Source: an uncultured bacterium (lineage in GTDB: Bacteria > Bacillota_I > Bacilli_A > RF39 > UBA660). Taken from it: a stretch of DNA of 64,000 bases. Below, piece by piece: positions 49,035 through 64,000 of the stretch. The stretch spans positions 227,548 to 291,547 of the forward strand of contig CAMERI010000001.1 in NCBI GenBank assembly GCA_945935525.1, in the 5' to 3' direction. Below the pieces are notes generated by a model. That model did no database searches, was not told the DNA's origin, and saw only the letters and a list, made by a program, of their open reading frames with translations. Each line of letters opens with the position of its first letter. The first letter of the stretch is position 1. Made by a program: the position numbers and the translations under genes.

Positions 49035-50243
49035 TTATCTTCTTAAAGTCATACCTCCACTTGTTGGTTGACTTTCCTCTATTAAATTTCTTCTATAACT
49101 TATTAAATAGCTTATTCTCTTTTCAACATCTTCTTTTTGACTAATAATTGAGTCAACTGTTTTTTTACTAGCACCATCAGCTATTGATTTAATATATAGT
49201 CTTTCAAGTCTAGTTTTTTCATTCATTAAGTTTTGAATTTCATTATCAAGTGAGTCAACTGTAACAGCTAAATCAATGTTTCTAGATGTTCTATTATTTT
49301 GAACAACAGGTTTATTTGTAACTAATGATTTACGTCTAATATTTAATTCATTATATTCAGTTGCCACTCTTTGTGCTTTTCTAAGAACAGTATTTAATTC
49401 TGTTTGTGATGCACCATTAGCTTTTAAACTATTATATTGTCTTTTAAGTCTATTATGTTCATCTTTTAATAAAGCCATATTTGTATCTATTTCTTTAATA
49501 ATTCTTTCATTATGACTAATAGTATTTTCTTTTCTAGTATTAGTAGCAGTTCTTTCTGTTACTACAGGTGTTGAAGTTTTAGTTTGTTTACTTTTTAATT
49601 CTTTACTTTGTTTTTCTAAATCATTATATTCATCAACAAGTTCATTTATTCTTAAAGCAACTTTTCTCTTTTCACTAGAATTTTCTAAAGAATTATATTT
49701 TTTTATTAAACTATTATACTCACTTCTAACAGAACTAATTCTTTCAGATAATTCGGTTTCTGTATAAGTTTTATCTTTAGAAAGATTTTCTTTAGATTCA
49801 GCCTTTTTATTTTTTCTTTCTTCAAGCATTTTATCTTTTTCAGTTTTAACGTTTTCTTTAGTCTTATTAAACCAGTTAGATATTTTATTAAGTTTATTTT
49901 TAATTTTCTCCTTAGATGATTCATTTTTAGCTTCTTGACGTTTCCATTCATTTAAGAAATATTTACCGTTATTTTTTAATGACTTAATTGGATGAAATAA
50001 ACTAATTAATTTTGAATTTAAAATCATAACAATAGGATGAATTATATTATAAACCGGTATAAATATTTTAATTATATTTTTAGCAAAGAATGCAATTTTA
50101 GCATCTTTAGATTTCTTTTTAAATTTCTCGTAATAATCTTTATCCTCAGTTTTAGCATACCATAAAGCAAGTAAACTATTTGTTGTATTAACAATACTAC
50201 TAGCAACAATTCCCCAAATATATAATGCAAGAATCCATGACAT
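49035..50243 (-). CDS. Membrane-anchored coiled-coil protein with three internal repeats of about 60 aa
   Basis: N-terminal TM helices, then a Lys/Glu-rich coiled coil with recurring '...EYN(S/E)L...' modules. Confidence 0.45.
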   Translation of the reverse strand: MSWILALYIWGIVASSIVNTTNSLLALWYAKTEDKDYYEKFKKKSKDAKIAFFAKNIIKIFIPVYNIIHPIVMILNSKLISLFHPIKSLKNNGKYFLNEWKRQEAKNESSKEKIKNKLNKISNWFNKTKENVKTEKDKMLEERKNKKAESKENLSKDKTYTETELSERISSVRSEYNSLIKKYNSLENSSEKRKVALRINELVDEYNDLEKQSKELKSKQTKTSTPVVTERTATNTRKENTISHNERIIKEIDTNMALLKDEHNRLKRQYNSLKANGASQTELNTVLRKAQRVATEYNELNIRRKSLVTNKPVVQNNRTSRNIDLAVTVDSLDNEIQNLMNEKTRLERLYIKSIADGASKKTVDSIISQKEDVEKRISYLISYRRNLIEESQPTSGGMTLRR

Positions 50244-50299
50244 ATCAATTCCCCCTTAATAATGTACATATTATATCACATTTGATACAATATGTCAAT

Positions 50300-50899
50300 T
50301 TATTTCTCAATTATAGGTTTAACTATCTCTAAAGTTTTAATATAGTTATATCTTCCAAGTACTCTTTCTTGAGGCATCTCTACTCTTTCAATTATAGGAG
50401 AATAACCTAACTTATGAGACCAAGTACCATCCATATTTTGTCTTATAAAATGAAAATCAAAAGATGCTTTAAAAAAAGCAATTTTATATCCTCCATGATG
50501 AGTATCCCCAAGCATAGTGCATTCATAAGAGTCTATACCAAGCAATTCCAAATCCTTTTGCAAATCATATAAATTAGTATTTAAATCATTTGAACTATAA
50601 AGGTCATCAGTCATAAACCCTAAGTTATGAGTTAAATTATCTATTTCTTTATATTCATATACACTTGCAAATATTTCTGGAGTTATTAATCCCAAAGCAT
50701 ACATATAACAATTAGAATGATTATATTTGCCTTCCTTCTCATCAAAAAGAGGCTTATTAGTTCCAAGTTTAACACACAATTTTAGATATTCTCTATATAA
50801 TTCATACACATCTAAAGATGTTAAATTTCTAATATTTGATATTAATCTAACATAAACAAATACAAGTTCTCTATACGTTTTTAAATATTCTAGCGTCAT
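50300..50899 (-). CDS. Uncharacterised cytosolic protein, paralogue A (conserved Cys/His motifs)
   Basis: Shares 'NCYxYALG', 'GYK..F...F.DFHF.RQN.DG.WSHK.GY.PII' and 'Y..T.EIVKP' with the upstream gene. Confidence 0.5.
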   Translation of the reverse strand: MTLEYLKTYRELVFVYVRLISNIRNLTSLDVYELYREYLKLCVKLGTNKPLFDEKEGKYNHSNCYMYALGLITPEIFASVYEYKEIDNLTHNLGFMTDDLYSSNDLNTNLYDLQKDLELLGIDSYECTMLGDTHHGGYKIAFFKASFDFHFIRQNMDGTWSHKLGYSPIIERVEMPQERVLGRYNYIKTLEIVKPIIEK

Positions 50900-51486
50900 T
50901 TAAGCCTCCTAACAAGAGGTTTAACTATTTCATATGTATGGATAATATCATAATCTGAAACATCAAAAGGATTACATTTAGTTATTATAGGTCTATATCC
51001 TACTTTGTGTGACCAACTTCCATCACTATTTTGTCTTGTAAAATGAAAATCTTTAAAACCTCTATATAATGAAACTTTATATCCATTATGTAAATTTGGC
51101 TTATCTACTTCACTATCAAAACATTTTATTCTTAAGTAACCCATATCAGTTTCAAATCCAAACATTAAATCATTAGGATCTGATACATCAATAATATTGT
51201 TACTTATAAAACCTATATTATGTGTCATCATCTTCTTTTTAAATCTAGCATACACATCACTGAATACATCATGAGTTGTAAATCCTAACGCATAACAATA
51301 ACAATTACCATATCTATATTTATCCTTATCAGCTTTAAATGATGGACTATTAGTACTAACTCTACTTTCTAAAAATAAATATCTTTTATATAATTCTTTA
51401 ACTTCATCTTCACTAATACTAGAAAAATTATCTTTAATGAAATTAATTATATTATCCATCTCTCTCCTAATATCAAATTCATTCAT
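50896..51486 (-). CDS. Uncharacterised cytosolic protein, paralogue B (conserved Cys/His motifs)
   Basis: Tandem paralogue of 50300-50899 with a 4-nt overlap. Confidence 0.5.
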   Translation of the reverse strand: MNEFDIRREMDNIINFIKDNFSSISEDEVKELYKRYLFLESRVSTNSPSFKADKDKYRYGNCYCYALGFTTHDVFSDVYARFKKKMMTHNIGFISNNIIDVSDPNDLMFGFETDMGYLRIKCFDSEVDKPNLHNGYKVSLYRGFKDFHFTRQNSDGSWSHKVGYRPIITKCNPFDVSDYDIIHTYEIVKPLVRRLK

Positions 51487-51731: not shown

Positions 51732-51777
51732 TGGTGTCCTCGGCACGATTCGAACGTGTGACCGACGGCTTAGAAGG
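51732..51777 (-). repeat. Partial copy of the 3' half of tRNA-Arg (att-site direct repeat of the tRNA at 61218-61294)
   Basis: tggtgtcctcggcacgattcgaacgtgtgaccgacggcttagaagg aligns with the 3' half of the intact tRNA-Arg. The core gaccgacggcttagaagg is identical, and the T-stem changes are compensatory. The expected 5' half is absent. A terminator hairpin (aagcctaaatataaggctt) follows on the minus strand. Confidence 0.7.
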
Positions 51778-51913: not shown

Positions 51914-52516
51914 TTAAACACCTTTCAAAATCTTATCAAACATATCTGCACTTTGCTGTTTACTAGCCTCATAAGCATGTGTATATATGTTCATTGTAGT
52001 ATTTGTATTTGAATGTCCTAGTCTTAAACTAACAGCTTTAATATTAACACCATTATCTATTAACAAGCTAGTGCAAGTATGTCTTAATTCATGAAAAGTA
52101 ATTTTAGGTAGATCATATTTTTTAATAATTTGAGAAAGTATATCTGTACAAGTATCTGGATGAATATGAGTACCATATTTTGATGTAAAAATTCTGTTTT
52201 CATTTTTTCACATTCTTCCAAGTTTCTTTTTATAATCATCTTGCCAAGCTTTGTACTCTTTTAATAAATCAATACATACTTGACTGATTATAATCTTTCT
52301 ATTGGAATATGTATTTTTAGCTTTTGATTCATCTACTATTCCATTTACTACTTTTAATCCATTATCAATTAGAATAGTATTATTTTCAAAATCTACATCA
52401 TTCCATTTAAGAGCACATATTTCACTTCTTCTTGCCCCACTATCAATTGCAAGTGTTATTAATGTTCTATATTTAATATTTTCATTTTTCAAGTGATTGT
52501 TCAAATGTGTATCCAT
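51914..52516 (-). pseudogene. int: Tyrosine integrase, N-terminally truncated and frameshifted
   Basis: 102-aa ORF carrying the box I Arg ('SGARRSEICALKW'). The C-terminal catalytic part ('FHELRHTCTSLLIDNGVNIKAVSLRLGHSNTNTTMNIYTHAY') is in a different frame, ending at 51914. No N-terminal arm/core-binding domain is present. Confidence 0.7.
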
Positions 52517-52862
52517 ATAATATATTATCTAATGATCCACTTCCATTAATATCTGAATTATATTCTACAAATTCATTTATATAATCTATTATTTCATTTT
52601 TACGTTCTAATGATGGTGTCTCTAAATAAAATCTTTCTATTAAATTACCATTCATAATTATTACTCCTTTTTTATTTATATGACATTAGGTTGTATCTAT
52701 TATATCATAAAATATTTCTTTTTAGATAGTCTAAAATCATACTGTGCTTATATAAAATTTATTATTAAACCAAACTAATTCAACATAAAAAGAGCAATAA
52801 AATATTTTACTGCTCAAAATATTATAAATTACTTTTTATATATTCTATTTAATCAACAAATA

Positions 52863-54938
52863 TTATTCATCGTAATGAGCTTTAGCAGGAGAAAATTCAT
52901 ACTTTTCACATTTTTCACCATTTAGTGTATATACCTTAGAACAAGTATACTTTTTTATTGCTTTAGGAAAACTATTTTTATAACATTTGGTACCACTTGC
53001 AACAAATCCTTCTTCACATACATACATTCCAACAGCATCAGTAGTTATTGTGGCGTAACACTTTGTACCCTTAAGTACAGTATCATCAGTGCATATATAT
53101 TTACTTGTGGCTGCTATTCCAGTTGTTTTAGCACACTGATTATTAACAGCTATATATCCACTTGGACAAATATATTTTTTCGTAGCAGCTATTGTTGTAT
53201 TAGAAGAAATAACACAATTTCCTTTTCCATCTGATGTTCCTTGAGAACAATAATATGTTTTATTAGCAAAGGTAGTGTAATGGCATAATCCATCGGTATA
53301 ATCATATCTTCCTTGTGCACACCAGTAATAATATGGACTTGCAGTGTGTTCACAAGTTTGGCCTTTTAATGTTCCAGAACTACAAGAATATTTGATAGAA
53401 GCAGCAACTATACTTGGTCTATTTTTTATGCAATTAGTTCCAGATAAATTATAAGAAGAATCAGGACATGAATATTTAACTTCAGCAGAAATATTAGAAA
53501 TGGTAAAACATTGATTTCCAGATGAAATATATCCTTTAGGACAAGAATATACTACAACTGCATCTGCAGATTCAACTTTTTCACATTTAGTATCTTTTAG
53601 TTTAAAACCATCTGCACATTTGTATACAAATTTTGAATCTCTAATATCATTACTTACGCAAATATCACCACTTACACTATAACCATCTTTACAGGTATAT
53701 GTAATTTTAGCATCTACAGAATCTATTGTTTTTTGACATTTATTGTCATCATTCAAAGTATATCCATTTTCACAGTAATAATATCCTTTAACACAGGTTC
53801 CATTTTTATTTATATACCCACTATCACATTTTTTTAAAGAAAAATATCCTTTAAGTATAAGTAAAAATAATAAACAAAGAATTAAAAACAACATTACTAT
53901 TTTTAAAACGAAATTTTCTGCAAAAAAATTTCTTATTTTAATAGCTATTGAACTATTCTTTATTAAATCAAAATAACTATCTTTAATATCATTATTCTTA
54001 ATAGCATCATTATCATATATTCCAATAGTAACAGATGTCAAATCAGATGAAAAATTAATTTTTTTACTAGTATTAGAATATATTTTTATTTTTTCTAAAT
54101 CTTTTCTCATTTTATTAGCACTATCATATCTATTATTATGATTAAATGAACATGCTTTAGTCAAGATACTCATAATTTCATTAGATATTCCATCTATATT
54201 TGGAATTTTTTCACCCGACATTCTAATATCAAATGCCTTCTTTTCATCAATATCAAAACTTACAAATGGAAGATTTCCATTAATCAATTTATACATAACA
54301 AGTCCTAATGAATATATATCAGATGTTGTATTTGGATTTTCACCATTATAAACTTCAGGAGAAATATAATCTAATGTACCAAATCCATTTAAATTATTAT
54401 TTGATGTTGCTATTCCAAAATCTCCAAGTTTATAATTACCTTTTTCATCAATAAATATATTACTAGGCTTAATGTCGTTATGTATAATATTTTTTGAAGA
54501 ACAATATTCTAAAGCTTTACATATATCACTGCCAAGTTTAATTACATCAGTAATTGTAACTTCCTTTTCAGAAAAATATTTAAGTATATCAGTTGCATAT
54601 TCCATAAATATATATATATCATATCCATTTTCTTCTTTTTTACTCTCCTGAAAAAAGTCATAATACTTAATAATATGATCATTATTATCAAGATTTTTCA
54701 TTATTTCAATTTCTTTTTTAATATTTTCAATGATATGCAAATAATAAACATTTATATCATCTTCACTTCTTATGTATCCTTCGGTAAAAAGAAATCTAAT
54801 TTCCTCATCATTTTTTGGTAAACTTATATATTTAACAGCACATACATCTCCATTATTATTTACTGCTCTATATACTTCAGAAAAACCTCCTTCACCTATT
54901 TTTTCATAAATTTTCCAATTTTTAATTTCTTTCTTCAT
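52863..54938 (-). CDS. Hanks-type Ser/Thr protein kinase with a TM segment and an extracellular Cys-pair repeat domain
   Basis: GEGGFSEV...AVK...HNDIKPSNIFID...DFGIAT...YISPEV; TM around residues 340-360; at least 10 repeats of Y-x-C-x2-G-[YF]-x-[LV]-x-G-x2-C. Confidence 0.8.
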   Translation of the reverse strand: MKKEIKNWKIYEKIGEGGFSEVYRAVNNNGDVCAVKYISLPKNDEEIRFLFTEGYIRSEDDINVYYLHIIENIKKEIEIMKNLDNNDHIIKYYDFFQESKKEENGYDIYIFMEYATDILKYFSEKEVTITDVIKLGSDICKALEYCSSKNIIHNDIKPSNIFIDEKGNYKLGDFGIATSNNNLNGFGTLDYISPEVYNGENPNTTSDIYSLGLVMYKLINGNLPFVSFDIDEKKAFDIRMSGEKIPNIDGISNEIMSILTKACSFNHNNRYDSANKMRKDLEKIKIYSNTSKKINFSSDLTSVTIGIYDNDAIKNNDIKDSYFDLIKNSSIAIKIRNFFAENFVLKIVMLFLILCLLFLLILKGYFSLKKCDSGYINKNGTCVKGYYYCENGYTLNDDNKCQKTIDSVDAKITYTCKDGYSVSGDICVSNDIRDSKFVYKCADGFKLKDTKCEKVESADAVVVYSCPKGYISSGNQCFTISNISAEVKYSCPDSSYNLSGTNCIKNRPSIVAASIKYSCSSGTLKGQTCEHTASPYYYWCAQGRYDYTDGLCHYTTFANKTYYCSQGTSDGKGNCVISSNTTIAATKKYICPSGYIAVNNQCAKTTGIAATSKYICTDDTVLKGTKCYATITTDAVGMYVCEEGFVASGTKCYKNSFPKAIKKYTCSKVYTLNGEKCEKYEFSPAKAHYDE

Positions 54939-57388
54939 TAATATCTACCACTTTCCAACTGTCTTTTCAAGATAACAAAACTAATAATAATAAAAGCAAC
55001 CGTCATAATAATAATTATAGTTCCATCATAAACTAAATGATTAATCGTAAAAGAGTAATAACTTTCTACTTCTCTAATGTATCCAGGAAAAACTTCTTGT
55101 ATAGAACTAATTAAACTGTTTAAATCATTAATAGTTCCAAGTGCTTCTACAGACCATCTGCATAATATAAAATTAGATATCTTACCTATAACACCATTTA
55201 ATGGAAATAGTATTCCAGAAAATAATAATTGAGGTACCAAAAGTAATGTAGGCATTGTTGAAGCAGAAGATGAATCTTTAGCCAATATAGAAACAAAAAG
55301 TCCCATGGAAGAAGCTGAAAATATAGTTAATATAATTATAAAAATAGTTTCTATATACCAGCTAAAAATAATACCATTACTTGGAACATCAACAAATAAA
55401 ACAAATGCAGAAATCAATAGAAAAGATTGAATTACAGAAAGTAAAAATAGAAAAAGTAGTTTTGAGCACAAATAAGATGATATACGTAAATCAGACATAT
55501 ATTCCTTTTCTAAAATTACTCGTTCTTTACAAACCTCTTGAATTGCATTTAAAAGTCCTAACCATATAGCAGCTGTAACTAAAGAAAATAAAATTGCTTT
55601 GGTTTCTTCATAAGAATAAAATATATTTTTAGTAACAACAATAGATAATAAAAATGCAATTAAAGGAACTTGTGCAAAAAGTAGTATTAATTGTTGATGA
55701 TTATTAATTAATATTTTTAATCTTCTTCTAAACAATGTATATAATTGTTTAGAAAATGATTTAGAATTCTTCTTTTTATTAATATTTGTAATTTCATTTT
55801 CAATATTTTTATTATTAGTATTAAATTCATCTATGTTATTTTTGTTATTATTTTTTGATTCATTAAATTCATTTAACCATTTATCTGGGTCATTTGAGAT
55901 TAAATTATAAATATCGACAAAATCTTTAACTTTAAAGAATTCTAAAGCTTCATCAGGTTTTCCATCAAAGCATAATTTACCACCATATCCAAAAAATACA
56001 ACTTTATCACATAAATTTAGATTTAAAGTATTATGAGTAACTAATATTATTGTTTTACCACTATCAGCCATTTTTCTTAATGTTTTCATTATACTTCTTT
56101 CTGTTCCTGGGTCAAGACCACTTGTAGGTTCATCAAGAAAAAATAATTTAGGGTCTGCAATTAATTCAACAGCTATACATGCTCTTTTTTTTTGTCCACC
56201 AGAAAGGTTTCTAATCATAACATCTTTTTTATCGGATAATTCGACTATCTCTAATACATTATTAATTCTATTAATTTTTTCTTGATAAGTAACATCATCA
56301 GGCATTCTAAGATTAGCTGAGTATTTAAGCATATCAATTAAAGTTAAATCGTTAAAAATTATATTTTCTTGTGGTACATAACCAATCAAATTTTTTAAAG
56401 CAGAATAATTATTAAACAGGTCACTACCATTAACCAAAACTTTACCACTTGTAGGTTTTGAAATACCACTGATACACTTTAAAAATGTAGATTTACCAGC
56501 TCCGCTTCCTCCAATAAATGCGATAAATTGACCAGGAGTTGCCGAAAAATTAATATGTTGTGCAATATCTTTCTTTTTTCCTTTAACTTTTATAGTTTTA
56601 ACTATATCTATAGCATCAAGTCTAACGCCTTCATCATATAACTGATATAAAATACTATTTTTATTATATATAAGCTTAATGTTATTAATAATTATTACAT
56701 CTTTGTCTTTAAGAAGCTTTTGTCCTACTAATATATTATTATTTAGTATTATACTACCTTTATTATTATAAGCACTTATATAATGTCCTTTATCTAGTTT
56801 TGTGATTTTAGCATGTTTAAGTAACACAGATATACGATTGAAAACAATATCACAATCTTCACCTCTACCAATCAATACATTTTTTTTATCACGTAAAGGA
56901 AAGCTAACCCACTTATTTGCTTTTTCTCCAATTGTAATAACCATTAGTATTCCTATACTTAGAGGATTATTAGGATTATCAATTTTGATGAAATCACCGT
57001 CATTTAAATAGCTATCTTTTGCTTTAACACTATTAACAAAAATACCATTTTTGCTATTTTCATCAAAAACTCTTATGGAACCATCATCAATAATAAAGTA
57101 TCCATGATGCTGTGATACTAATAAAGATGGTAAAACGATGTCATTATCTTCTGAACGCCCAAAAGTAATTTTATTACTTTCATAATCATTAAGAGAAATA
57201 TTTTTTATATAATTATCTCCAATTATAGTAATAATATATTTTATTTTCTTTTTTGTATTTTTATTTAAGTCGTTATTCTTTTCAGTATCATTAATATATG
57301 AAATAAAATTATCATCTTTTTTATTAATTTTAATCTCGGTATTAAAATCATTAATAAATTTACCTTTAGTATTTATCCCTTCATTCAC
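54938..57388 (-). CDS. ABC transporter (ABCG/ABC-2 type) with two N-terminal FHA domains (Rv1747-like architecture)
   Basis: Two FHA domains ('ITFGRSEDNDIVLP...', 'VLIGRGEDCDIVFN...'), then an NBD (GGSGAGKST, LSGGQKKR, LFFLDEPTSGLD), then a 6-TM permease. It overlaps the kinase gene by 1 nt. Confidence 0.8.
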   Translation of the reverse strand: MNEGINTKGKFINDFNTEIKINKKDDNFISYINDTEKNNDLNKNTKKKIKYIITIIGDNYIKNISLNDYESNKITFGRSEDNDIVLPSLLVSQHHGYFIIDDGSIRVFDENSKNGIFVNSVKAKDSYLNDGDFIKIDNPNNPLSIGILMVITIGEKANKWVSFPLRDKKNVLIGRGEDCDIVFNRISVLLKHAKITKLDKGHYISAYNNKGSIILNNNILVGQKLLKDKDVIIINNIKLIYNKNSILYQLYDEGVRLDAIDIVKTIKVKGKKKDIAQHINFSATPGQFIAFIGGSGAGKSTFLKCISGISKPTSGKVLVNGSDLFNNYSALKNLIGYVPQENIIFNDLTLIDMLKYSANLRMPDDVTYQEKINRINNVLEIVELSDKKDVMIRNLSGGQKKRACIAVELIADPKLFFLDEPTSGLDPGTERSIMKTLRKMADSGKTIILVTHNTLNLNLCDKVVFFGYGGKLCFDGKPDEALEFFKVKDFVDIYNLISNDPDKWLNEFNESKNNNKNNIDEFNTNNKNIENEITNINKKKNSKSFSKQLYTLFRRRLKILINNHQQLILLFAQVPLIAFLLSIVVTKNIFYSYEETKAILFSLVTAAIWLGLLNAIQEVCKERVILEKEYMSDLRISSYLCSKLLFLFLLSVIQSFLLISAFVLFVDVPSNGIIFSWYIETIFIIILTIFSASSMGLFVSILAKDSSSASTMPTLLLVPQLLFSGILFPLNGVIGKISNFILCRWSVEALGTINDLNSLISSIQEVFPGYIREVESYYSFTINHLVYDGTIIIIMTVAFIIISFVILKRQLESGRY

Positions 57389-57465
57389 TTTTAATCACCT
57401 ATTCTATTATAATCATATCATTTGCTATAAAATAAATCAATAAATATTCCATACACTATTTATAT

Positions 57466-57498
57466 ACCTAATAAAAAAGAATCCTAAATGGATTCTTA
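57466..57498 (-). terminator. Rho-independent terminator after the hydrolase gene
   Basis: aagaatcc-taaa-tggattctt hairpin followed on the minus strand by a T-run. Confidence 0.5.
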
Positions 57499-57510
57499 AA
57501 ATTTGTAATT

Positions 57511-59202
57511 TTATTTAATAATGCTTTCAAGTGGTTTACCTGAATTTTCAAAAGCTGAACATTGCATATTTGCAACACAATTTGCAAAATTTCCTATTAA
57601 ATTAGTATATTCAGTTTTATTTGAACCTACTACAATGAAAGCATGTGGTGCTTTTGCAACATTCCATCTATAAAGTAATTTTGCATTGCCAATATTAGCT
57701 GCAATAACATCTGCATTACTAGGTGGAACCATAGTATCATTATCTCCATGAATTATAATAACTTTACTTCCTTTTGGAAATTGTCTTCCTGAAGAAAATG
57801 CATTAGCATATTTGTCGTAATTTTCTTCTGTTAATCCAATTCCTCCAAATTTAATTAATAGTTTGGCAATAATATCTTCAAGTAATGATGAAGAATCTTT
57901 ATTAAAAGAATTATTTACTTTATTAATAGAGTAGTTATCAATAATATAAGTTTGTTTACTAATAGTATATTTATTCCACCAATCAATAATTTCATTTTTA
58001 TCTATTTCTGGAATTTGTATTTGGTTTTTATCATTTACGTTTGGATAATTGTCTTTTTTATTTTCTATATATTCATTTAACTTATCACTAAATCCTTTTA
58101 AATATTCATTAAGTTCAGTTCCATTAGTAATATCAATTTCATTAATTTCAGAAAAATCTCCAATATTTAAATTTTTAATTTGATTTTGAAGTTCATTCAT
58201 AAAGTTATTTACATCAATACCAAATCCACCAAGAAGTGCAGTAGACTGACTACTATCTCCTAAAGAAAGCATACCGGTAATAATTCCTGTCATAGAAGCA
58301 TATCCACAATCATCTACAAATCCTTTTACATTTAATTCTGTTAAATTGGCTGAATATACTCCCCCAGAAGCTGAAGCAATATCTGGATTTGTTGCAAGTT
58401 GAAGTGTTGTAGCACTACCTAAAGATACACCATGTACTACAATAGTTTCTGGTTTACTATTAACACCATATCTCGCATAATTAGTATTTAAATCTTTGAT
58501 CCAGTCATAAGTATCTAAACTTTCTAAGTAACCCATAGCTACTTTACCTTCGCTTTTTCCAGCACCTCTTAAATCCGGAGCAATAACATTATATCCTTGT
58601 GAAGTGTACATTTCTCCTAAAGTACTATATATTTGTTTTCCGGTCATATTTACACCATGTAATAATACTGCCCATTTATTAGAATTAGCATCACTTATAT
58701 AAACATTAGCGCTTAAACCATTATCACTTAGGCAATAATCTCCACCGATTGTTTCACATACTGTATATGATTTTAACGTTAAAGTTTTACTAACAATTGA
58801 TGAATTACCACCAATATTAGTATTTAATAAAGAATCCAATATGCTAATTATACTATTTAAAAATTTCCCAGTATCATTTTCATTATTTTCTATAACACTA
58901 TTAGTAAGTAAAGTGTTTGCATAACCAGTACCATCACCATCATCATAAGTTTTTCCATATTCTTGAACTTTTTCCAAGAAATCAACCTTAGCCTCTTCAA
59001 CATCCACGCTAGAATCCATATTGCTTGCATATTCTTTTAAGCCAGATAAATATTCTTTGTATTGTTTTGTCTCGTAAGTTTCTATAGTTTTTTCATTAGA
59101 AAAATCAAATAACTTAAAAACAACAAAAACTATGGCAATAACAACTACTATAATTCCTATCCACAAAACCCACTTATTACTTTTATTTTTTTCTTCACTC
59201 AT
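57511..59202 (-). CDS. Membrane-anchored alpha/beta-hydrolase (serine esterase/lipase-like)
   Basis: N-terminal TM; 'HGVSLGS' GxSxG nucleophile elbow; C-terminal 'HGDNDTMVP' and 'APHAF', which are candidate Asp and His of the triad. Confidence 0.6.
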   Translation of the reverse strand: MSEEKNKSNKWVLWIGIIVVVIAIVFVVFKLFDFSNEKTIETYETKQYKEYLSGLKEYASNMDSSVDVEEAKVDFLEKVQEYGKTYDDGDGTGYANTLLTNSVIENNENDTGKFLNSIISILDSLLNTNIGGNSSIVSKTLTLKSYTVCETIGGDYCLSDNGLSANVYISDANSNKWAVLLHGVNMTGKQIYSTLGEMYTSQGYNVIAPDLRGAGKSEGKVAMGYLESLDTYDWIKDLNTNYARYGVNSKPETIVVHGVSLGSATTLQLATNPDIASASGGVYSANLTELNVKGFVDDCGYASMTGIITGMLSLGDSSQSTALLGGFGIDVNNFMNELQNQIKNLNIGDFSEINEIDITNGTELNEYLKGFSDKLNEYIENKKDNYPNVNDKNQIQIPEIDKNEIIDWWNKYTISKQTYIIDNYSINKVNNSFNKDSSSLLEDIIAKLLIKFGGIGLTEENYDKYANAFSSGRQFPKGSKVIIIHGDNDTMVPPSNADVIAANIGNAKLLYRWNVAKAPHAFIVVGSNKTEYTNLIGNFANCVANMQCSAFENSGKPLESIIK

Positions 59203-59333
59203 AATTTTTCCTTCCTATTCTAAATTTAAATATACATTCTTTAATAAATAAAGTCAAGAATTAACAAAATATTTGGATGTATATTTATAATGTTATTTGA
59301 TAAAATTGACTATATTACTTTATGTTTTAAAAA

Positions 59334-59957
59334 TTAATAAATATTTTTTTCTTTGGATTTATTTTTATATAATTTAGTTATTAAAATTATTAATAATATA
59401 AATAAAAGTAGTAATGAAAAACGTGAATATAATTTAAATATCTTTAGTATTGCTTTCCAATTTCTTCCAACTATATGTCCTAGTATTATTAATACTAGAT
59501 TCCATATTACTGAACCAAGTAATGTATAAGTTATAAACTTACTTATATTCATTTTATTTATTCCTGCTGGTATTGAAATTATACTTCTAATTAATGGTAT
59601 AAATCTACCAAAAAATACTGTTTTTTTACCTTCGTTAGTAAACCATTTATTTGCATTATCTATATTGCTATTTTTTAATTTTAATACTCTTCCTAGTTTT
59701 CCTGAAATTAATATTTTTAATTTTTCTTTGCTAAATATAGTTCCTATTTTATATAACAATAAAGCACCAATTAGTGACCCTAAAGTTGATGAAATAATCA
59801 TTCCTATTATGTTTAATTTTGTATATGTTGTCATAAAACCACCAAATAATAAAATTAATTCTGATGGTATTGGTGGAAATATATTTTCAATTAATATTAA
59901 TAAAAATACTCCTATATATCCGTAACTATTCATAATATTTATAATAAATTCTTGCAT
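59334..59957 (-). CDS. DedA/SNARE-associated family membrane protein
   Basis: 'ENIFPPIPSELILLFGG' DedA signature plus multi-TM topology. Confidence 0.7.
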   Translation of the reverse strand: MQEFIINIMNSYGYIGVFLLILIENIFPPIPSELILLFGGFMTTYTKLNIIGMIISSTLGSLIGALLLYKIGTIFSKEKLKILISGKLGRVLKLKNSNIDNANKWFTNEGKKTVFFGRFIPLIRSIISIPAGINKMNISKFITYTLLGSVIWNLVLIILGHIVGRNWKAILKIFKLYSRFSLLLLFILLIILITKLYKNKSKEKNIY

Positions 59958-60071
59958 ATTATTTCTCCTTTAATAGTTTGTTTACTAAAATAATATATTT
60001 TTCCTAAAGAATTATTATTACTTTCTTCTAAATCTTTTAAATACTATTTAATTTTTTATACATTAATATAA

Positions 60072-60098
60072 ATTAAAAAAGAACTGATATTTCAGTTC
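60072..60098 (-). terminator. Rho-independent terminator after the hsdM remnant
   Basis: gaactga-tattt-cagttc hairpin followed on the minus strand by T6. Confidence 0.45.
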
Positions 60099-60105
60099 AA
60101 TACTT

Positions 60106-60513
60106 TTATTTTATAACAATTCCATCTAAATTAACATTTCTCATTGTGGGTGAATTATAGTTTTTAGGTAAAACATTTTTTAAAGAGTTATTTTCTTTTT
60201 CTATTAAAGTTAATGCATCATCAATTATTTCTCCAATGTTTGTCTCTTTAGAATGTTCTACTAAAAATTCCCATCTTGCATTTTTAGGTACATAAAAAAT
60301 ATTTTCTGCAGTATAGCAATCTCTTTCCTCTTCTAATCCCGCACCTTCTTCTACAAGTTCTTTGTATTTTTCTTCAAAAGAATCTGATATATATTTTAGA
60401 AATATCAAACCTAATACAATAAATTAATAATCAGATACAGAAACTGCACCTCTCATTTTATCAGCTGCAGCCTATAACTTATCTTCTAACTTTTTCAAAT
60501 CTTGTTCATTCAT
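60106..60513 (-). pseudogene. hsdM: Type I restriction-modification methyltransferase HsdM, N-terminal remnant with two in-frame stop codons
   Basis: Continuous frame MNEQDLKKLEDKL[TAG]AAADKMRGAVSVSDY[TAA]FIVLGLIFLKYISDSFEE...TAENIFYVPKNARWEFL...IDDALTLIEKENNSLKNVLPKNY is HsdM_N. The stops fall where W and K normally are. The ORF ends after about 135 codons, whereas HsdM is roughly 500 aa. Confidence 0.65.
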
Positions 60514-60650
60514 TAATTCTTCACCTCATAATTCAATTCTTATACTAATTATAACATAATTTTACATTTTTTCTTCAAATCTAATATTATTTTATATAAT
60601 TATGAAATGATTTTGACTTTTTGAATTTTTATGATATATTGCTCTTGAAA

Positions 60651-60950
60651 AAAGGAGATGTATTATGAATAAAGAATTAGAAAAATTAACAGATGAAGAA
60701 TTTTTGAATATTATTAAATTTCATAGTGAGCAAGTAAAGTTTATCTTGAAAATGAATTATATGAGTATATTGCTTTTTATATTGCTAAAGGACTTGAATA
60801 TAATGCTATATTTGATGATAACTTTGAAAGAATAGTAAATACTGCTATGAAATCATTTGATTCATTTCAATTTAGGAATAAAATTGATTATGAAAGAATA
60901 AAATCAATACTTAAAAATAAATATCATCTAAAAAAGAGATTTAATTAAAA
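60651..60950 (+). pseudogene. Small frameshifted ORF (MNKELEKLTDEEFLNIIKFHSEQVKFILK / ENELYEYIAFYIAKGLEYNAIFDDNFERIVNTAMKSF...)
   Basis: RBS GGAGATG; the reading frame shifts after about 30 codons and continues for about 65 codons in the +1 frame. Confidence 0.3.
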
Positions 60951-61217
60951 ATCTCTTTTAAATTTTGATGTTTTTTATTAAAAAGTGACATTTTGCATCC
61001 ATTTTTATAATTATAATACACGTTTCTCCCTTTATTTATCGATGATTGCTCTATTTTTAATGGGTGCCCAAAAAGGTGCCGAAAACATCAAAAAGCGCCT
61101 ATAAAAGTGCCAAAAAATGTAATAATTTGTGATAGTTTGTGATAATTAAGAATTTGTATTGAACAAATAAAAAATGCCTTAAACTCAGCATTTATAAGGC
61201 ATTTTTAATTTTTAAAC

Positions 61218-61294
<77 letters not shown>

Positions 61295-63161: not shown

Positions 63162-64000
63162 TTAATCTCTATCAATTTCTCTTTCAATTATTTTACCAGT
63201 TTTAGCATCTATTACATATTCATACTCAGCATCCTTAGTATCAAAACTAATTTCATAAGTTTCATCATCACTTTCAAATTCTATTTCATAATCATAATAA
63301 TTAGTAACCTTAGCATCACTTAATACAATAGTTTTAGCTTTTTCTTTAGTTATATATTTAGTTGCATCTACTTTCTTATTCTTAGTTTCATATTTAATTA
63401 TATTGCCACTTACTGCATCAAGTTCAATATCATATTCTTTATCTTTAGTTTCAAATTCAACTTCATAAACAGCTTTTCCACTCTTAAATTCAAACTCTAT
63501 TTCATAATCATAATACTCTTTAACTTTAGTTTTATTAAGTACTATTTCTTTTATTTTTTCTTTAGATAAATAATTTTTAGATGTACTTGCATTCTCTTTT
63601 TTATTTTCTATTTCTTTTTCAATTATTTTACCGGTTTTAGCATCTATTTCATAATCATATTCAGTATTATTAGAAACAAATTCTATATCATAAACCATAA
63701 TACCATCATCATAATCATATTCAATTTCTAAATTTTTAACTGTATCAATACTTACTTTTGAATCATCAAATACTATTTTTTTAGCTTCATCCATACTAAT
63801 ATAATTGCTCTTACTAGCAGTACCTACAGTACTTATTTCTCCAGTCTTATTATAAGTTGTATTTGCTAAAATATTTAATTCATTAGTACTTAGTTTAGAC
63901 AATTCTTCAAAATTATATAAAGAATTCTTATTAAGAATACTTCTTATTAATTTAACTTTAGATACGGAGATATTATATTTTTTTGATAAATCTTTATCAT
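63162..64000 (-). CDS. PepSY-repeat protein, 5' end outside the window
   Basis: Three PepSY-like modules ('ISMDEAKKIV...YDIEFVSNNTEYDYEIDAKTGKII' and two more). The open frame continues upstream of the TTG at 63902 to the window edge. Confidence 0.55.
   Translation of the reverse strand, partial: DKDLSKKYNISVSKVKLIRSILNKNSLYNFEELSKLSTNELNILANTTYNKTGEISTVGTASKSNYISMDEAKKIVFDDSKVSIDTVKNLEIEYDYDDGIMVYDIEFVSNNTEYDYEIDAKTGKIIEKEIENKKENASTSKNYLSKEKIKEIVLNKTKVKEYYDYEIEFEFKSGKAVYEVEFETKDKEYDIELDAVSGNIIKYETKNKKVDATKYITKEKAKTIVLSDAKVTNYYDYEIEFESDDETYEISFDTKDAEYEYVIDAKTGKIIEREIDRD

What the first reader, a model, noticed from the sequence alone, without database searches (positions are those of the whole stretch)
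52863..57388. Ser/Thr kinase co-transcribed with a double-FHA ABC transporter (PknF/Rv1747-like module) as island cargo
The transporter gene encodes two N-terminal FHA phosphothreonine-binding domains, an ABC ATPase and an ABC-2 permease in one polypeptide. It overlaps by 1 nt a downstream Hanks-type kinase gene. This matches the domain architecture and gene pairing of Mycobacterium tuberculosis Rv1747 and PknF, in which the kinase phosphorylates the transporter's FHA linker. Finding the pair in an AT-rich Firmicute, inside a tRNA-integrated island, suggests a horizontally transferable phospho-regulated export module of unknown substrate.
Basis: partly seen in the sequence, partly recalled or inferred. 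Interest (0 to 1): 0.7.

Follow-up and report, generated by a model that had tools for sequence, protein, structure and literature searches.

The report
Kinase-controlled lipid-type exporter, horizontally acquired
A gut bacterium carries a membrane exporter with two phosphothreonine-reading domains and, overlapping it, a receptor kinase, like the Rv1747/PknF pair of the tuberculosis bacillus; this copy was recently cut from a sister species' chromosome and now sits in a decayed mobile element at a tRNA gene.

Summary
54938-57388(-) encodes FHA-FHA-ABC ATPase-ABCG-type permease (816 aa), overlapping by 1 nt (TAATG) a 691-aa Hanks kinase at 52863-54938(-). FHA1's best solved-structure match is Rv1747 FHA-1.

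The island claim also holds, but with a twist. The pair lies in a 9,486-bp insertion at tRNA-Arg(TCT), bounded by a 46-nt repeat and absent from conspecific strains with 99.5% identical flanks. The element is a wreck: a truncated integrase with a stop codon and an hsdM pseudogene. Its 7.7-kb interior (UptA-like DedA, lipase-like hydrolase, transporter, kinase) is 99.1% identical to a chromosomal locus of a sister lineage whose core DNA is only ~88% identical. It still carries scraps of that locus's two flanking genes. So this is captured chromosomal DNA, transferred between species.

Differences from Rv1747/PknF:
- The gene order is reversed.
- There is no inter-FHA phospho-acceptor linker (~6 residues), and FHA2 is degenerate.
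- The kinase is non-RD (HND), with 13 Cys-pair repeats outside the cell that are shared with TraN adhesins.
- An invariant juxtamembrane Thr (T304, TIGI) is the likely FHA1 docking site.

Verdict: a new variant of a known kind, of moderate interest.

The parts
61218..61294 (-). tRNA-Arg(TCT), the integration target. Its 3' 46 nt (61218-61263) is attL. The T-stem (GGCG/CGCC) and the 3' flank are element-derived.
   Evidence: ARAGORN and Rfam 68.8 bits. All empty-site relatives carry the other T-stem version, CACACG/CGTG.
60134..61217 (.). Left remnant of the integrative element. It holds a decaying small ORF (~60665-60949, +; 94 aa in L001, shorter in other strains) and an hsdM N-terminal pseudogene (60134-~60520, -) with two in-frame stops.
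   Evidence: HsdM_N Pfam 1.4e-15. PADLOC Type I MTase 4.7e-28. The stops are visible in the sequence. The ORF length varies between strains.
60106..60133 (-). Scrap of the donor's p281 gene (last 9 codons, NLDGIVIK*), fused in frame to the hsdM fragment. This is the left capture junction.
   Evidence: Identical to L120/L103/L091 p281 3' ends and different from the window species' own L105-type p281.
59334..59957 (-). DedA/VTT-family membrane protein resembling the undecaprenyl-phosphate transporter UptA.
   Evidence: VTT_dom 2.3e-21. NCBIfam UptA 1.1e-48, but 166 bits is below the 300-bit cut-off. The gene is split in 5 island-bearing strains.
57511..59202 (-). Membrane-anchored alpha/beta-hydrolase (TM at residues 11-29, GVSLG nucleophile elbow at 258-262), lipase/esterase-like. 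It is a conserved partner of the transporter.
   Evidence: Hydrolase_4 2e-11. The nearest PDB match is monoacylglycerol lipase, 2.4e-6. TM and motif. A homologue lies next to the FHA-ABC gene in 18 of 80 species loci.
57477..57497 (-). Terminator-like hairpin after the hydrolase gene. A promoter-like TTGATT-17-TATGAT site (57440-57412) follows, upstream of the transporter start.
   Evidence: sequence. These are consensus matches only.
54938..57388 (-). FHA-FHA-ABCG-type half-transporter (816 aa). Residues 1-47 are disordered. FHA1 is residues 51-153 (nt 56930-57238), FHA2 160-249 (nt 56642-56911), NBD 257-510 (nt 55859-56620). A disordered linker spans 515-540. The TMD is residues 545-812 (nt 54953-55756).
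   Evidence: Pfam. TIGR00955 5.3e-68 over residues 269-812. AF2 model. Foldseek ABCG2 E 1e-26, TM 0.80. Rv1747 FHA-1 2.4e-11.
52863..54938 (-). Receptor-type Hanks Ser/Thr kinase (691 aa). The catalytic domain is residues 9-274 (nt 54117-54914). The juxtamembrane segment carries the invariant T304 (TIGI; nt 54027-54029). The TM is residues 344-362 (nt 53853-53909). The ectodomain, residues 365-691 (nt 52866-53846), has 13 Cys-pair repeats.
   Evidence: Pkinase 1.1e-46. PknB 1.1e-23. Motifs. Orthologue alignment. AF2 ectodomain pLDDT 82, all-beta. Repeat relatives.
52792..52815 (-). Intrinsic-terminator-like hairpin (10-bp stem plus T-run) 48 nt after the kinase stop codon. It marks the end of the transporter-kinase unit.
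52484..52654 (-). First ~57 codons of the donor's GNAT acetyltransferase gene. This is the right capture junction.
   Evidence: Aligns to the intact 204-209-aa GNAT of L091/L120 up to ~52484, then diverges.
51915..52483 (-). Tyrosine-recombinase (integrase) remnant. Only the catalytic domain is present, the N-terminal domain is missing, and there is an in-frame TGA at 52208-52210.
   Evidence: Phage_integrase 4.6e-10. Translation. The same remnant is present in all occupied strains.
51732..51777 (-). attR: the displaced native 3' half of tRNA-Arg, followed by the native downstream flank.
   Evidence: Direct repeat D6, 89% identical. Identical to the tRNA 3' half and flank of the empty-site strains.

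Best explanation
WHAT IT IS
The module is an Rv1747/PknF-type phospho-regulated export system. It consists of an ABCG-type half-transporter with a tandem FHA head and, translationally coupled downstream, a single-pass receptor Ser/Thr kinase. The conserved neighbour is a membrane-anchored lipase-like hydrolase. In this strain lineage the module lies on a 7.7-kb piece of a sister species' chromosome, lodged inside a decayed tRNA-Arg integrative element.

HOW IT MOST LIKELY WORKS (inferred)
1. The kinase's extracellular rod of 13 disulfide-type Cys-pair hairpins binds a surface or envelope ligand. The same repeat occurs in TraN mating adhesins.
2. Binding drives autophosphorylation of the activation-loop Thr and of the invariant juxtamembrane T304 (T-I-G-I, hydrophobic at +3).
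3. The canonical FHA1 of the transporter docks on that phosphothreonine. The R78, S92, H95 and N114 residues of FHA1 are invariant.
4. Docking, possibly with further phosphorylation of the disordered N-terminus or of the NBD-TMD linker, raises the export activity of the homodimeric ABCG-type pump. The substrate is probably a lipid or lipid-linked envelope molecule.
5. The extracytoplasmic hydrolase processes that molecule.

Because the two FHA domains are about 6 residues apart and FHA2 has lost pThr-contact residues, the in-cis linker phosphorylation that operates in Rv1747 cannot work here.

HOW IT GOT HERE (shown, except for the order of events)
An element integrated site-specifically into tRNA-Arg and supplied a replacement tRNA 3' half. 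The element's interior now consists of the donor's p281(3' scrap)-VTT-HYD-ABC-KIN-GNAT(5' scrap) segment.
For: Architecture and kinship:
- Domain architecture.
- FHA1's best PDB match is Rv1747 FHA-1.
- The kinase is nearest to PknB/StkP.
- Catalytic motifs are intact, with a 1-nt overlap and a terminator after the kinase.

Mechanism leads:
- A juxtamembrane Thr with I/V at +3 is invariant in 14 orthologues.
- FHA1 pThr residues are invariant in 56 sequences, and FHA2 is degenerate.
- In Rv1747, FHA-1 mediates PknF docking, and mycobacterial FHA domains prefer a hydrophobic residue at pT+3: PMC3138270.

Genomic association and constraint:
- 51 of 80 species-level loci have a kinase within 10 kb of an FHA-ABC gene.
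- dN/dS is 0.11-0.19 for HYD, ABC and KIN.

Island:
- The repeat.
- Empty sites, including L131, whose flanks are 99.5-99.6% identical.

Donor:
- The native locus is 99.1% identical to the block.
- It belongs to the lineage whose HemW is 87.8% identical and whose core DNA is ~88% identical.
- The window's own species has a trio-less p281 locus.
- Junction scraps.
Against: - No experimental data exist. Phosphorylation, docking, substrate and direction of regulation are all inferred by analogy.
- The HND (non-RD) catalytic loop and its variability among orthologues (HRD/HKD/HCD, and HKN in one) leave the activation mode open.
- T-x-x-[IV] is a short motif.
- 29 of 80 loci have an FHA-ABC gene without a nearby kinase, so the adjacent kinase is not obligatory for the family.
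- Extracellular disulfides in a strict anaerobe are unverified.
- Whether island-free strains of the window's species have another copy elsewhere was not established.
- A dead integrase makes the route of arrival unclear.
Confidence: 0.6

Rival explanations
1. In-cis regulation as in Rv1747. The kinase phosphorylates the transporter itself, in the disordered N-terminal 47 residues (T7, T17, T35, T45) or the disordered NBD-TMD linker (residues 515-540). FHA1 then binds those sites within the dimer. The juxtamembrane T304 plays no special role.
For: Rv1747 is regulated through its own phospho-sites. Both segments are disordered and contain Thr.
Against: Neither segment is conserved. The N-terminal extension is absent from most orthologues (coverage 94%) and shows dN/dS ~1.4. 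No Thr in the linker is conserved. T304 is invariant.
Confidence: 0.2
2. There was no horizontal transfer. The pair is an ordinary vertically inherited cluster, and the tRNA half-copy plus integrase fragment are leftovers of an unrelated element that happened to lie beside it.
For: - There is no GC contrast.
- The trio is conserved in related MAGs.
- The integrase is adjacent to the distal repeat and not to the tRNA.
Against: - Strains with 99.5-99.6% identical flanks have tRNA-Arg directly followed by p196.
- The native tRNA version equals the distal half-copy.
- The block is 99.1% identical to another lineage's locus, against ~88% for core DNA.
- The p281 scrap is of donor type, not of the window species' own type.
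Confidence: 0.03
3. The kinase and ATPase pair is an anti-phage defence system, which would fit a location in an island that carries restriction-modification remnants.
For: PADLOC hits: kinase to MADS mad6 (1.2e-58) and PD-T4-6, NBD to mad3 (6.5e-30). An hsdM remnant lies in the island, and RhuM genes lie near the native locus.
Against: - The hits cover only the generic kinase and ATPase domains, and the NCBIfam MAD6 score of 105 is far below the 460 cut-off.
- The ATPase is fused to an ABCG-type permease.
- The other MADS components are absent.
- In the donor clade the cluster sits among rplS, lepB, thyA and lon.
Confidence: 0.04
4. The kinase acts mainly as a scaffold or pseudokinase. The non-RD HND loop means little catalysis, and the FHA head binds pThr made by another kinase such as the PASTA kinase.
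For: HND replaces HRD. One orthologue (L012) has HKN and a shortened activation loop. In M. tuberculosis other kinases can substitute for PknF.
Against: The catalytic Lys, Asp, Asn, DFG and activation-loop Thr are all present and conserved in 13 of 14 orthologues. The catalytic domain is under purifying selection (dN/dS 0.22). Non-RD kinases are commonly active.
Confidence: 0.1

Closest known systems
Mycobacterium tuberculosis Rv1747 (FHA-FHA-ABC exporter) with PknF (PMC3138270)
   Same: - Two N-terminal FHA domains, an NBD and an ABC-2/ABCG-type permease in one chain.
- A membrane Hanks kinase encoded next to it in the same orientation.
- FHA1 is the canonical, better conserved domain and is the closest PDB relative of Rv1747 FHA-1.
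   Different: - The gene order is reversed, with overlapping genes.
- The inter-FHA spacer is ~6 residues, against ~100 disordered residues carrying T150/T208.
- FHA2 lacks the canonical Ser/Asn.
- The kinase is non-RD and has a 330-aa Cys-repeat ectodomain.
- A lipase-like hydrolase is a conserved neighbour.
- The host is a low-GC gut bacterium of the Bacilli/'Mollicutes' MAG group.
Eukaryotic-type ABCG half-transporters (ABCG2, ABCG5/G8, ABCG1, plant ABCG25)
   Same: NBD-then-TMD order, the same fold (Foldseek E 1e-26, TM 0.80-0.85 relative to target), and the TIGR00955 profile over residues 269-812.
   Different: The tandem FHA head, the bacterial origin and the unknown substrate.
PASTA receptor kinases PknB / PrkC / StkP
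   Same: Nearest catalytic domains. The topology is the same: kinase, juxtamembrane segment, one TM, extracellular repeats.
   Different: There are no PASTA domains. The ectodomain is 13 Cys-pair beta-hairpin repeats, with no Pfam family and no PDB fold match.
Cys-rich repeats of F-type conjugation protein TraN and cEGF-like modules
   Same: The Y-x-C-P-x-G-Y-x-L-x-G-x-x-C unit. Of the 50 closest repeat-bearing proteins, 12 are TraN (PF06986, best 6e-85) and 8 match cEGF. TraN acts like an adhesin and needs its conserved cysteines (PMC7555446).
   Different: Here the repeats are fused to a cytoplasmic kinase in a bacterium of Gram-positive lineage, and no ligand is known.
tRNA-integrated genomic islands (tyrosine-recombinase elements that replace the tRNA 3' end)
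   Same: A direct repeat of the tRNA 3' half, a hybrid tRNA, an integrase gene at one end, and an empty site in conspecific strains.
   Different: The integrase and the R-M gene are wrecks. The payload is a chromosomal fragment of a sister species with truncated genes at both junctions. There is no GC contrast.

Membership tests
Rv1747-type FHA-ABC exporter | Two N-terminal FHA domains | tested here: met
   Pfam FHA, 2 stretches. AF2 shows two beta-sandwiches at 51-153 and 160-249, pLDDT ~80-88.
Rv1747-type FHA-ABC exporter | FHA-1 with intact pThr-binding residues (Arg, Ser, His, Asn) | tested here: met
   G77, R78, S92, H95, N114 and G115 are invariant in 56 sequences. The best PDB hit is Rv1747 FHA-1, 2.4e-11.
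Rv1747-type FHA-ABC exporter | NBD plus ABC-2/ABCG-type permease in the same polypeptide (exporter half-transporter) | tested here: met
   ABC_tran and ABC2_membrane. TIGR00955. Foldseek ABCG2/G5G8/G1.
Rv1747-type FHA-ABC exporter | Long disordered inter-FHA linker carrying the kinase's Thr phospho-acceptor sites (T150/T208) | tested here: not met
   FHA1 ends at ~153 and FHA2 starts at ~160. There is no conserved Thr in a disordered spacer.
Rv1747-type FHA-ABC exporter | Hanks kinase encoded adjacent and co-oriented (operon) | tested here: met
   1-nt overlap (TAATG) and a terminator only after the kinase. The order is reversed relative to pknF-Rv1747.
Rv1747-type FHA-ABC exporter | Phosphorylation by the cognate kinase positively regulates transport | not testable with these tools
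   Needs kinase assays and genetics.
Active Hanks-type Ser/Thr kinase | Gly-rich loop, VAIK Lys, catalytic Asp/Asn, DFG, activation-loop Thr, APE-like motif | tested here: met
   GEGGFSEV at 15, K36, D155, N160, DFG at 173, GT at 188-189, SPE at 193. These are conserved in 13 of 14 orthologues.
Active Hanks-type Ser/Thr kinase | RD kinase (Arg before the catalytic Asp) | tested here: not met
   HND in the window, L007, L087, L089 and L091. Other orthologues have HRD, HKD or HCD.
PASTA kinases (PknB/PrkC/StkP) | Extracellular PASTA repeats | tested here: not met
   No PASTA hit. The ectodomain has no Pfam family above threshold. NCBIfam PknB_PASTA_kin scores 143 bits, below the 450 cut-off.
tRNA-integrated genomic island | Insertion at a tRNA 3' end flanked by a direct repeat of the tRNA 3' part | tested here: met
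   46-nt repeat, spacing 9,486 nt, with a hybrid versus native T-stem.
tRNA-integrated genomic island | Empty site in close relatives | tested here: met
   L131, L117, L118 and L094-L102. L131 flanks are 99.5-99.6% identical.
tRNA-integrated genomic island | Functional integrase | tested here: not met
   Only the C-terminal catalytic part remains, with an in-frame TGA. It is fused to a GNAT fragment.
tRNA-integrated genomic island | Foreign origin of the payload | tested here: met
   The block is 99.1% identical to the L120-L124 locus. That lineage's HemW is 87.8% identical and its core DNA ~88%. There is no GC contrast, as expected for a closely related donor.
Anti-phage defence systems (MADS, PD-T4-6, Stk2) | Full component set or architecture of a described system | tested here: not met
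   Only single-domain hits, and NCBIfam MAD6 is far below its cut-off.

The most novel reading that the evidence does not exclude
The kinase's 13-unit Cys-pair ectodomain, shared with TraN mating adhesins, defines an undescribed class of bacterial receptor kinase. It would sense contact with another cell surface or a host or envelope macromolecule. It would switch on an ABCG-type lipid exporter directly, by FHA docking on its juxtamembrane phosphothreonine, without any transcription step. The hydrolase-exporter-kinase cassette would move between gut species as a selectable unit.
Probability: 0.15. Interest if true: 0.65.

Novelty: new variant of a known kind. Interest (0 to 1): 0.42.

Why it matters
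Rv1747/PknF is the only studied case of an ABC exporter controlled through FHA domains, and its substrate is still debated. This work adds three things.

1. The same design is widespread. More than 7,700 homologues were found, and a kinase lies within 10 kb in 64% of the sampled species. The design exists in a stripped-down form without the phospho-acceptor linker, which points to kinase-tail docking as the conserved core of the mechanism.
2. The conserved lipase-like and UptA-like neighbours give testable hints that the cargo is a lipid or a lipid-linked envelope precursor.
3. The locus is a cleanly documented case of a chromosomal gene cluster copied from one gut species into another through a tRNA-site element, with both junctions readable.

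None of this overturns current ideas, so the value is incremental.

Tried and rejected
1. Rival scenario that a second tRNA-Arg gene and an unrelated element remnant merely flank a native cluster (note). Rejected by the empty sites and the tRNA T-stem test.
2. First impression that L091 showed the 'native locus of the same species'. Revised after the flank comparison: L091 is a ~95% sister of the donor lineage.
3. Search for the parent element. The exact element-type tRNA half was not found in IMG/VR, and integrase relatives there are at most 33% identical. No intact element was seen in 10 contexts of the commonest GerM variant.
4. Fold identification of the ectodomain. Foldseek against the PDB gave nothing (best E 0.095, TM ~0.1), and Pfam gave only a sub-threshold Sushi hit. 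The word-indexed protein search found only 9 relatives, while the exhaustive HMMER search found 588.
5. Defence-system membership: rejected.
6. Rfam scan of the island: only the tRNA, plus a chance-level Ysr197 hit.
7. The full-length PDB sequence search was swamped by NBD hits. The FHA region had to be searched alone.
8. The GTDB species-representative scan did not return the window's own species or the donor.

Full report
1. THE OBSERVATION

The upstream gene, 54938..57388(-), has a GTG start with an AGGTGA Shine-Dalgarno 5 nt before it. It encodes 816 residues, with Pfam FHA (two stretches, E 1.6e-19), ABC_tran (1.9e-30) and ABC2_membrane (3.2e-18).

An AlphaFold2 model built on 56 homologues (mean pLDDT 78.6, pTM 0.77) resolves these parts:
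- a disordered N-terminus (residues 1-47);
- two beta-sandwich FHA folds (51-153 and 160-249);
- an NBD (257-510);
- a disordered linker (515-540);
- a helical membrane domain (545-812).

The NBD and TMD superpose on ABCG-family half-transporters: ABCG2 E 1e-26, TM 0.80-0.85 relative to target, and also ABCG5/G8, ABCG1 and ABCG25. The NCBIfam ABCG/'White' profile TIGR00955 aligns over residues 269-812 (5.3e-68).

The downstream gene, 52863..54938(-), encodes a 691-residue Hanks kinase (Pkinase 1.1e-46; nearest solved relatives PknB 1.1e-23 and StkP). It has a Gly-loop, K36, HND153-155, DFG173, an activation-loop Thr and SPE193. One TM helix (344-362) follows, then a 330-residue ectodomain with 26 cysteines.

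The stop and start codons share one base (TAATG). A terminator-like hairpin follows the preceding hydrolase gene, a promoter-like site precedes the transporter start, and a 10-bp-stem terminator follows the kinase. A bicistronic unit is therefore the simplest reading, but this is inferred, not shown.

2. KINSHIP WITH Rv1747/PknF

When the FHA region is searched alone against all PDB sequences, the top hit is Rv1747 FHA-1 itself (6cah, 2.4e-11). It ranks ahead of EmbR, GarA and the other mycobacterial FHA proteins.

The primary paper (PMC3138270) gives these reference facts:
- pknF and Rv1747 form an operon.
- PknF phosphorylates Thr-150 and Thr-208, which lie between the two FHA domains, and this positively regulates the transporter.
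- FHA-1, but not FHA-2, is essential and mediates the interaction with PknF.
- Mycobacterial FHA domains prefer a hydrophobic residue at pThr+3.

The window's protein shares the overall design and the dominance of FHA1. G77, R78, S92, H95, N114 and G115 are invariant in 56 sequences. FHA2 is degenerate: Leu replaces the canonical Ser in the window, and the Asn is not conserved.

It differs in one defining respect. The FHA domains are separated by about six residues, so there is no disordered phospho-acceptor linker. The gene order is also reversed.

3. A BETTER CANDIDATE FOR THE PHOSPHO-SWITCH

I aligned the kinase with 13 orthologues taken from related loci. The juxtamembrane segment is variable except for one Thr, which is invariant and always followed by I/V at +3. 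In the window this is T304, in the motif T-I-G-I. It is the only T-x-x-hydrophobic site in the segment, and it matches the FHA preference reported for mycobacteria.

No Thr in the transporter's two disordered segments is conserved. The N-terminal extension is missing from most orthologues and shows dN/dS of about 1.4 on eight changes.

I therefore propose, as inference, that FHA1 docks on the autophosphorylated kinase tail.

The catalytic loop is non-RD (HND) and varies among orthologues: HRD, HKD and HCD occur. One orthologue, L012, has HKN and a shortened activation loop and is probably a pseudokinase.

4. THE ECTODOMAIN

The ectodomain consists of 13 units of about 25 residues (Y-x-C-P-x-G-Y-x-L-x-G-x-x-C), and every cysteine is conserved.
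- It has no Pfam family; the only hit is a sub-threshold Sushi match.
- AF2 gives a confident all-beta hairpin array (pLDDT 82, pTM 0.34, as expected for a rod).
- There is no PDB fold match.
- An exhaustive HMMER search of 1.84 billion cluster representatives finds 588 relatives, 42 of them below 1e-30.
- Of the 50 best non-giant hits, 14 are kinases, 12 are F-type TraN proteins (PF06986, best 6e-85) and 8 match cEGF.

TraN is the conjugative mating-pair adhesin and depends on its conserved cysteines (PMC7555446).

The ectodomain is the most constrained part of the kinase (dN/dS 0.10, against 0.22 for the catalytic domain). An adhesin-like, ligand- or surface-binding role is plausible but unproven.

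5. CONSERVED NEIGHBOURS

Upstream lies a 563-residue alpha/beta-hydrolase with an N-terminal TM anchor and a GVSLG nucleophile elbow. Its nearest solved relatives are monoacylglycerol lipases (2.4e-6).

It accompanies the FHA-ABC gene in the related 'Bacilli' MAG loci. It also does so, convergently and without any kinase, in a group of 'Clostridia' MAG loci. In all, 18 of 80 loci have it.

Further upstream is a DedA/VTT protein that resembles the undecaprenyl-phosphate transporter UptA (1.1e-48, below the NCBIfam cut-off). This adjacency is limited to the donor clade.

Together with the ABCG fold, these neighbours point to a lipid or lipid-linked envelope substrate. This is inference.

6. DISTRIBUTION

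The FHA-FHA-ABC architecture is common. More than 7,700 homologues were found below 1e-10, in Bacilli, Clostridia, Cyanobacteria and Chloroflexi.

In the 80 species-representative loci:
- 51 have a Hanks kinase within 10 kb;
- 13 of these are immediately downstream on the same strand;
- 28 are elsewhere on the same strand;
- 10 are divergent upstream, all in cyanobacteria;
- 29 loci have no kinase nearby.

Only the 10 'Bacilli' loci share the Cys-repeat ectodomain. The kinase/FHA-ABC association is therefore ancient and general, and this lineage has its own version of the kinase.

7. THE ISLAND

tRNA-Arg(TCT) lies at 61218-61294(-). Its 3' 46 nt recur at 51732-51777 at 89% identity, 9,486 nt away. 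The differences are compensatory changes in the T-stem.

An integrase remnant lies just inside the distal copy. It has only the catalytic domain and an in-frame TGA. An hsdM N-terminal pseudogene with two stop codons lies near the tRNA.

In 15 loci the tRNA is followed directly by p196-p199-p402-HemW. These come from relatives whose GerM is 100%, 98%, 95%, 91% or 74% identical to the window's.

Every one of the nine empty sites I read (L094-L102) carries the T-stem and 3' flank of the window's distal half-copy. This is the expected outcome if an element brought its own tRNA 3' half.

The closest empty strain is L131, on a 1.375-Mb contig. It is 99.5-99.6% identical to both flanks, and its two alignments overlap by exactly the 46-nt repeat.

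The occupied arrangement recurs in at least 15 independent assemblies, so it is not an assembly artefact.

8. WHERE THE PAYLOAD CAME FROM

Window 52469-60133 is 99.1% identical to loci L120-L124. There the same genes sit between core genes: tmk-thyA-...-FtsW-rplS-lepB-p281 | VTT-HYD-ABC-KIN | GNAT-...-GTPase-Lon.

The window's copy still carries the last nine codons of p281, fused in frame to the hsdM fragment. It also carries the first ~57 codons of GNAT, fused to the integrase fragment. The p281 scrap is identical to the L120 type and differs from the L105 type.

Which genomes own which locus was worked out from cluster look-ups:
- The NCBI MAG GCA_022784165.1 holds the native-locus genes (ABC MCI7332769, HYD MCI7332770, p281 MCI7332772). 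It also holds a HemW (MCI7332525) that is 99.7% identical to the L100 type and only 87.8% to the window's.
- Contig lengths of 662,373, 728,093 and 657,291 bp are shared between native-locus proteins and the GerM-74%/HemW-88% variants.
- That lineage's core DNA around the tRNA-Arg locus is 87.7-88.6% identical to the window.
- Contig lengths of 808,920 and 917,474 bp link the window's own species (GerM 94-99%; HemW 98.9% for the 808,920-bp contig) to the L105-type p281 locus.
- The L105-type locus has a 68%-identical VTT paralogue and no hydrolase, transporter or kinase.

L091 is a ~95% sister of the donor lineage. It shows equal divergence in flank (95.4%) and block (95.1%), and matching synonymous divergence: block dS 0.10-0.13, most flank genes 0.10-0.16, LepB 0.30. 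The cluster is therefore native in that clade.

Conclusion: a 7.7-kb chromosomal segment of a sister species now resides inside a degraded tRNA-Arg element in one strain lineage of the window's species.

The order of events cannot be decided. Capture may have happened in the donor and been followed by transfer, or after DNA uptake. It is also open whether the integrase truncation came with the capture or later. The present element cannot move itself.

9. STATE OF THE ACQUIRED GENES

HYD, ABC and KIN are intact in every occupied strain where they are covered. They evolve under purifying selection (dN/dS 0.11-0.19), like the flanking core genes of the donor (0.10-0.13).

The UptA-like gene is split in five occupied strains. 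This fits redundancy with the recipient's own paralogue.

10. RIVALS

- A purely vertical explanation is excluded by sections 7 and 8.
- A defence-system reading finds only generic single-domain hits.
- An in-cis Rv1747-like phospho-switch remains possible but lacks conserved acceptor sites.
- A scaffold or pseudokinase role is unlikely because the catalytic residues are conserved.

11. VERDICT

- The proposed phospho-acceptor linker is absent.
- The kinase is a distinct receptor type.
- The 'cargo' is captured chromosomal DNA of a close relative inside a dead element.

This is a new variant of the known Rv1747/PknF kind, of moderate interest.

Noticed in passing
window 49035-51486 (-): Three genes right next to the tRNA-Arg site are hypervariable between sister lineages (28-68% aa). 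They are the tandem paralogues p196 and p199 and the Lys/Glu-rich p402. Their neighbours HemW, the ABC exporters, MraZ and RsmH are 88-98% identical. None of the three has a Pfam or NCBIfam family.
   Followed up: partly
L133, L136, L137, L138, L140 (equivalent to window 59334-59957): In five island-bearing strains the UptA-like VTT gene is split into 104-aa and 72-aa ORFs, while the hydrolase, transporter and kinase stay intact. This suggests that only the trio is under selection in the recipient.
   Followed up: partly
L016, L018-L020, L023-L028, L064, L068: In a group of 'Clostridia' MAGs the FHA-ABC gene has no kinase within 10 kb, but a convergent homologue of the membrane-anchored hydrolase lies directly downstream. 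There the hydrolase-transporter link is tighter than the kinase link.
   Followed up: no
L012 12298-14586: The kinase orthologue has HKN in place of HxD and a shortened activation loop. It is probably a pseudokinase that keeps the Cys-repeat ectodomain.
   Followed up: no
proteins P0366, P0377, P0380, P0381 and others: The same Cys-pair repeat builds giant proteins of up to 4,088 aa, with up to 25 matched stretches, and also occurs in small lipoproteins (P0245, P0248). This looks like an unannotated bacterial extracellular repeat family that overlaps TraN and cEGF.
   Followed up: partly
L133, L136-L138 (IS110 family) and L118 (IS605/TnpB), about 4-6 kb beyond window 64000 on the GerM side: There are strain-variable IS insertions next to the DUF1015 gene: between it and the sigma-factor gene for IS110, and upstream of it for IS605.
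   Followed up: no
L089, L091, L120, L124, downstream of the native locus: RhuM (PF13310) genes or fragments recur a few kb after the kinase/GNAT genes in the donor clade. This hints at an old mobile-element scar beside the native locus.
   Followed up: no
window 57248-57388 (transporter residues 1-47): The N-terminal extension is disordered in AF2, absent from most orthologues and apparently unconstrained (7 nonsynonymous against 1 synonymous change versus L091). It carries several Thr residues.
   Followed up: partly
window 63162-63902 (-): A 246-aa protein is built from three ~70-aa internal repeats (direct-repeat families D1 and D2). In relatives it forms the C-terminal part of a 462-aa gene annotated with RsgI_M and PepSY domains.
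   Followed up: no
window 52208-52210, ~60425 and ~60472: The in-frame stops in the integrase remnant (TGA, where Trp is expected) and in the hsdM remnant (TAG, where Trp is expected, and TAA) are decay mutations, not signs of an alternative genetic code. The long intact ORFs elsewhere read normally with table 11.
   Followed up: yes
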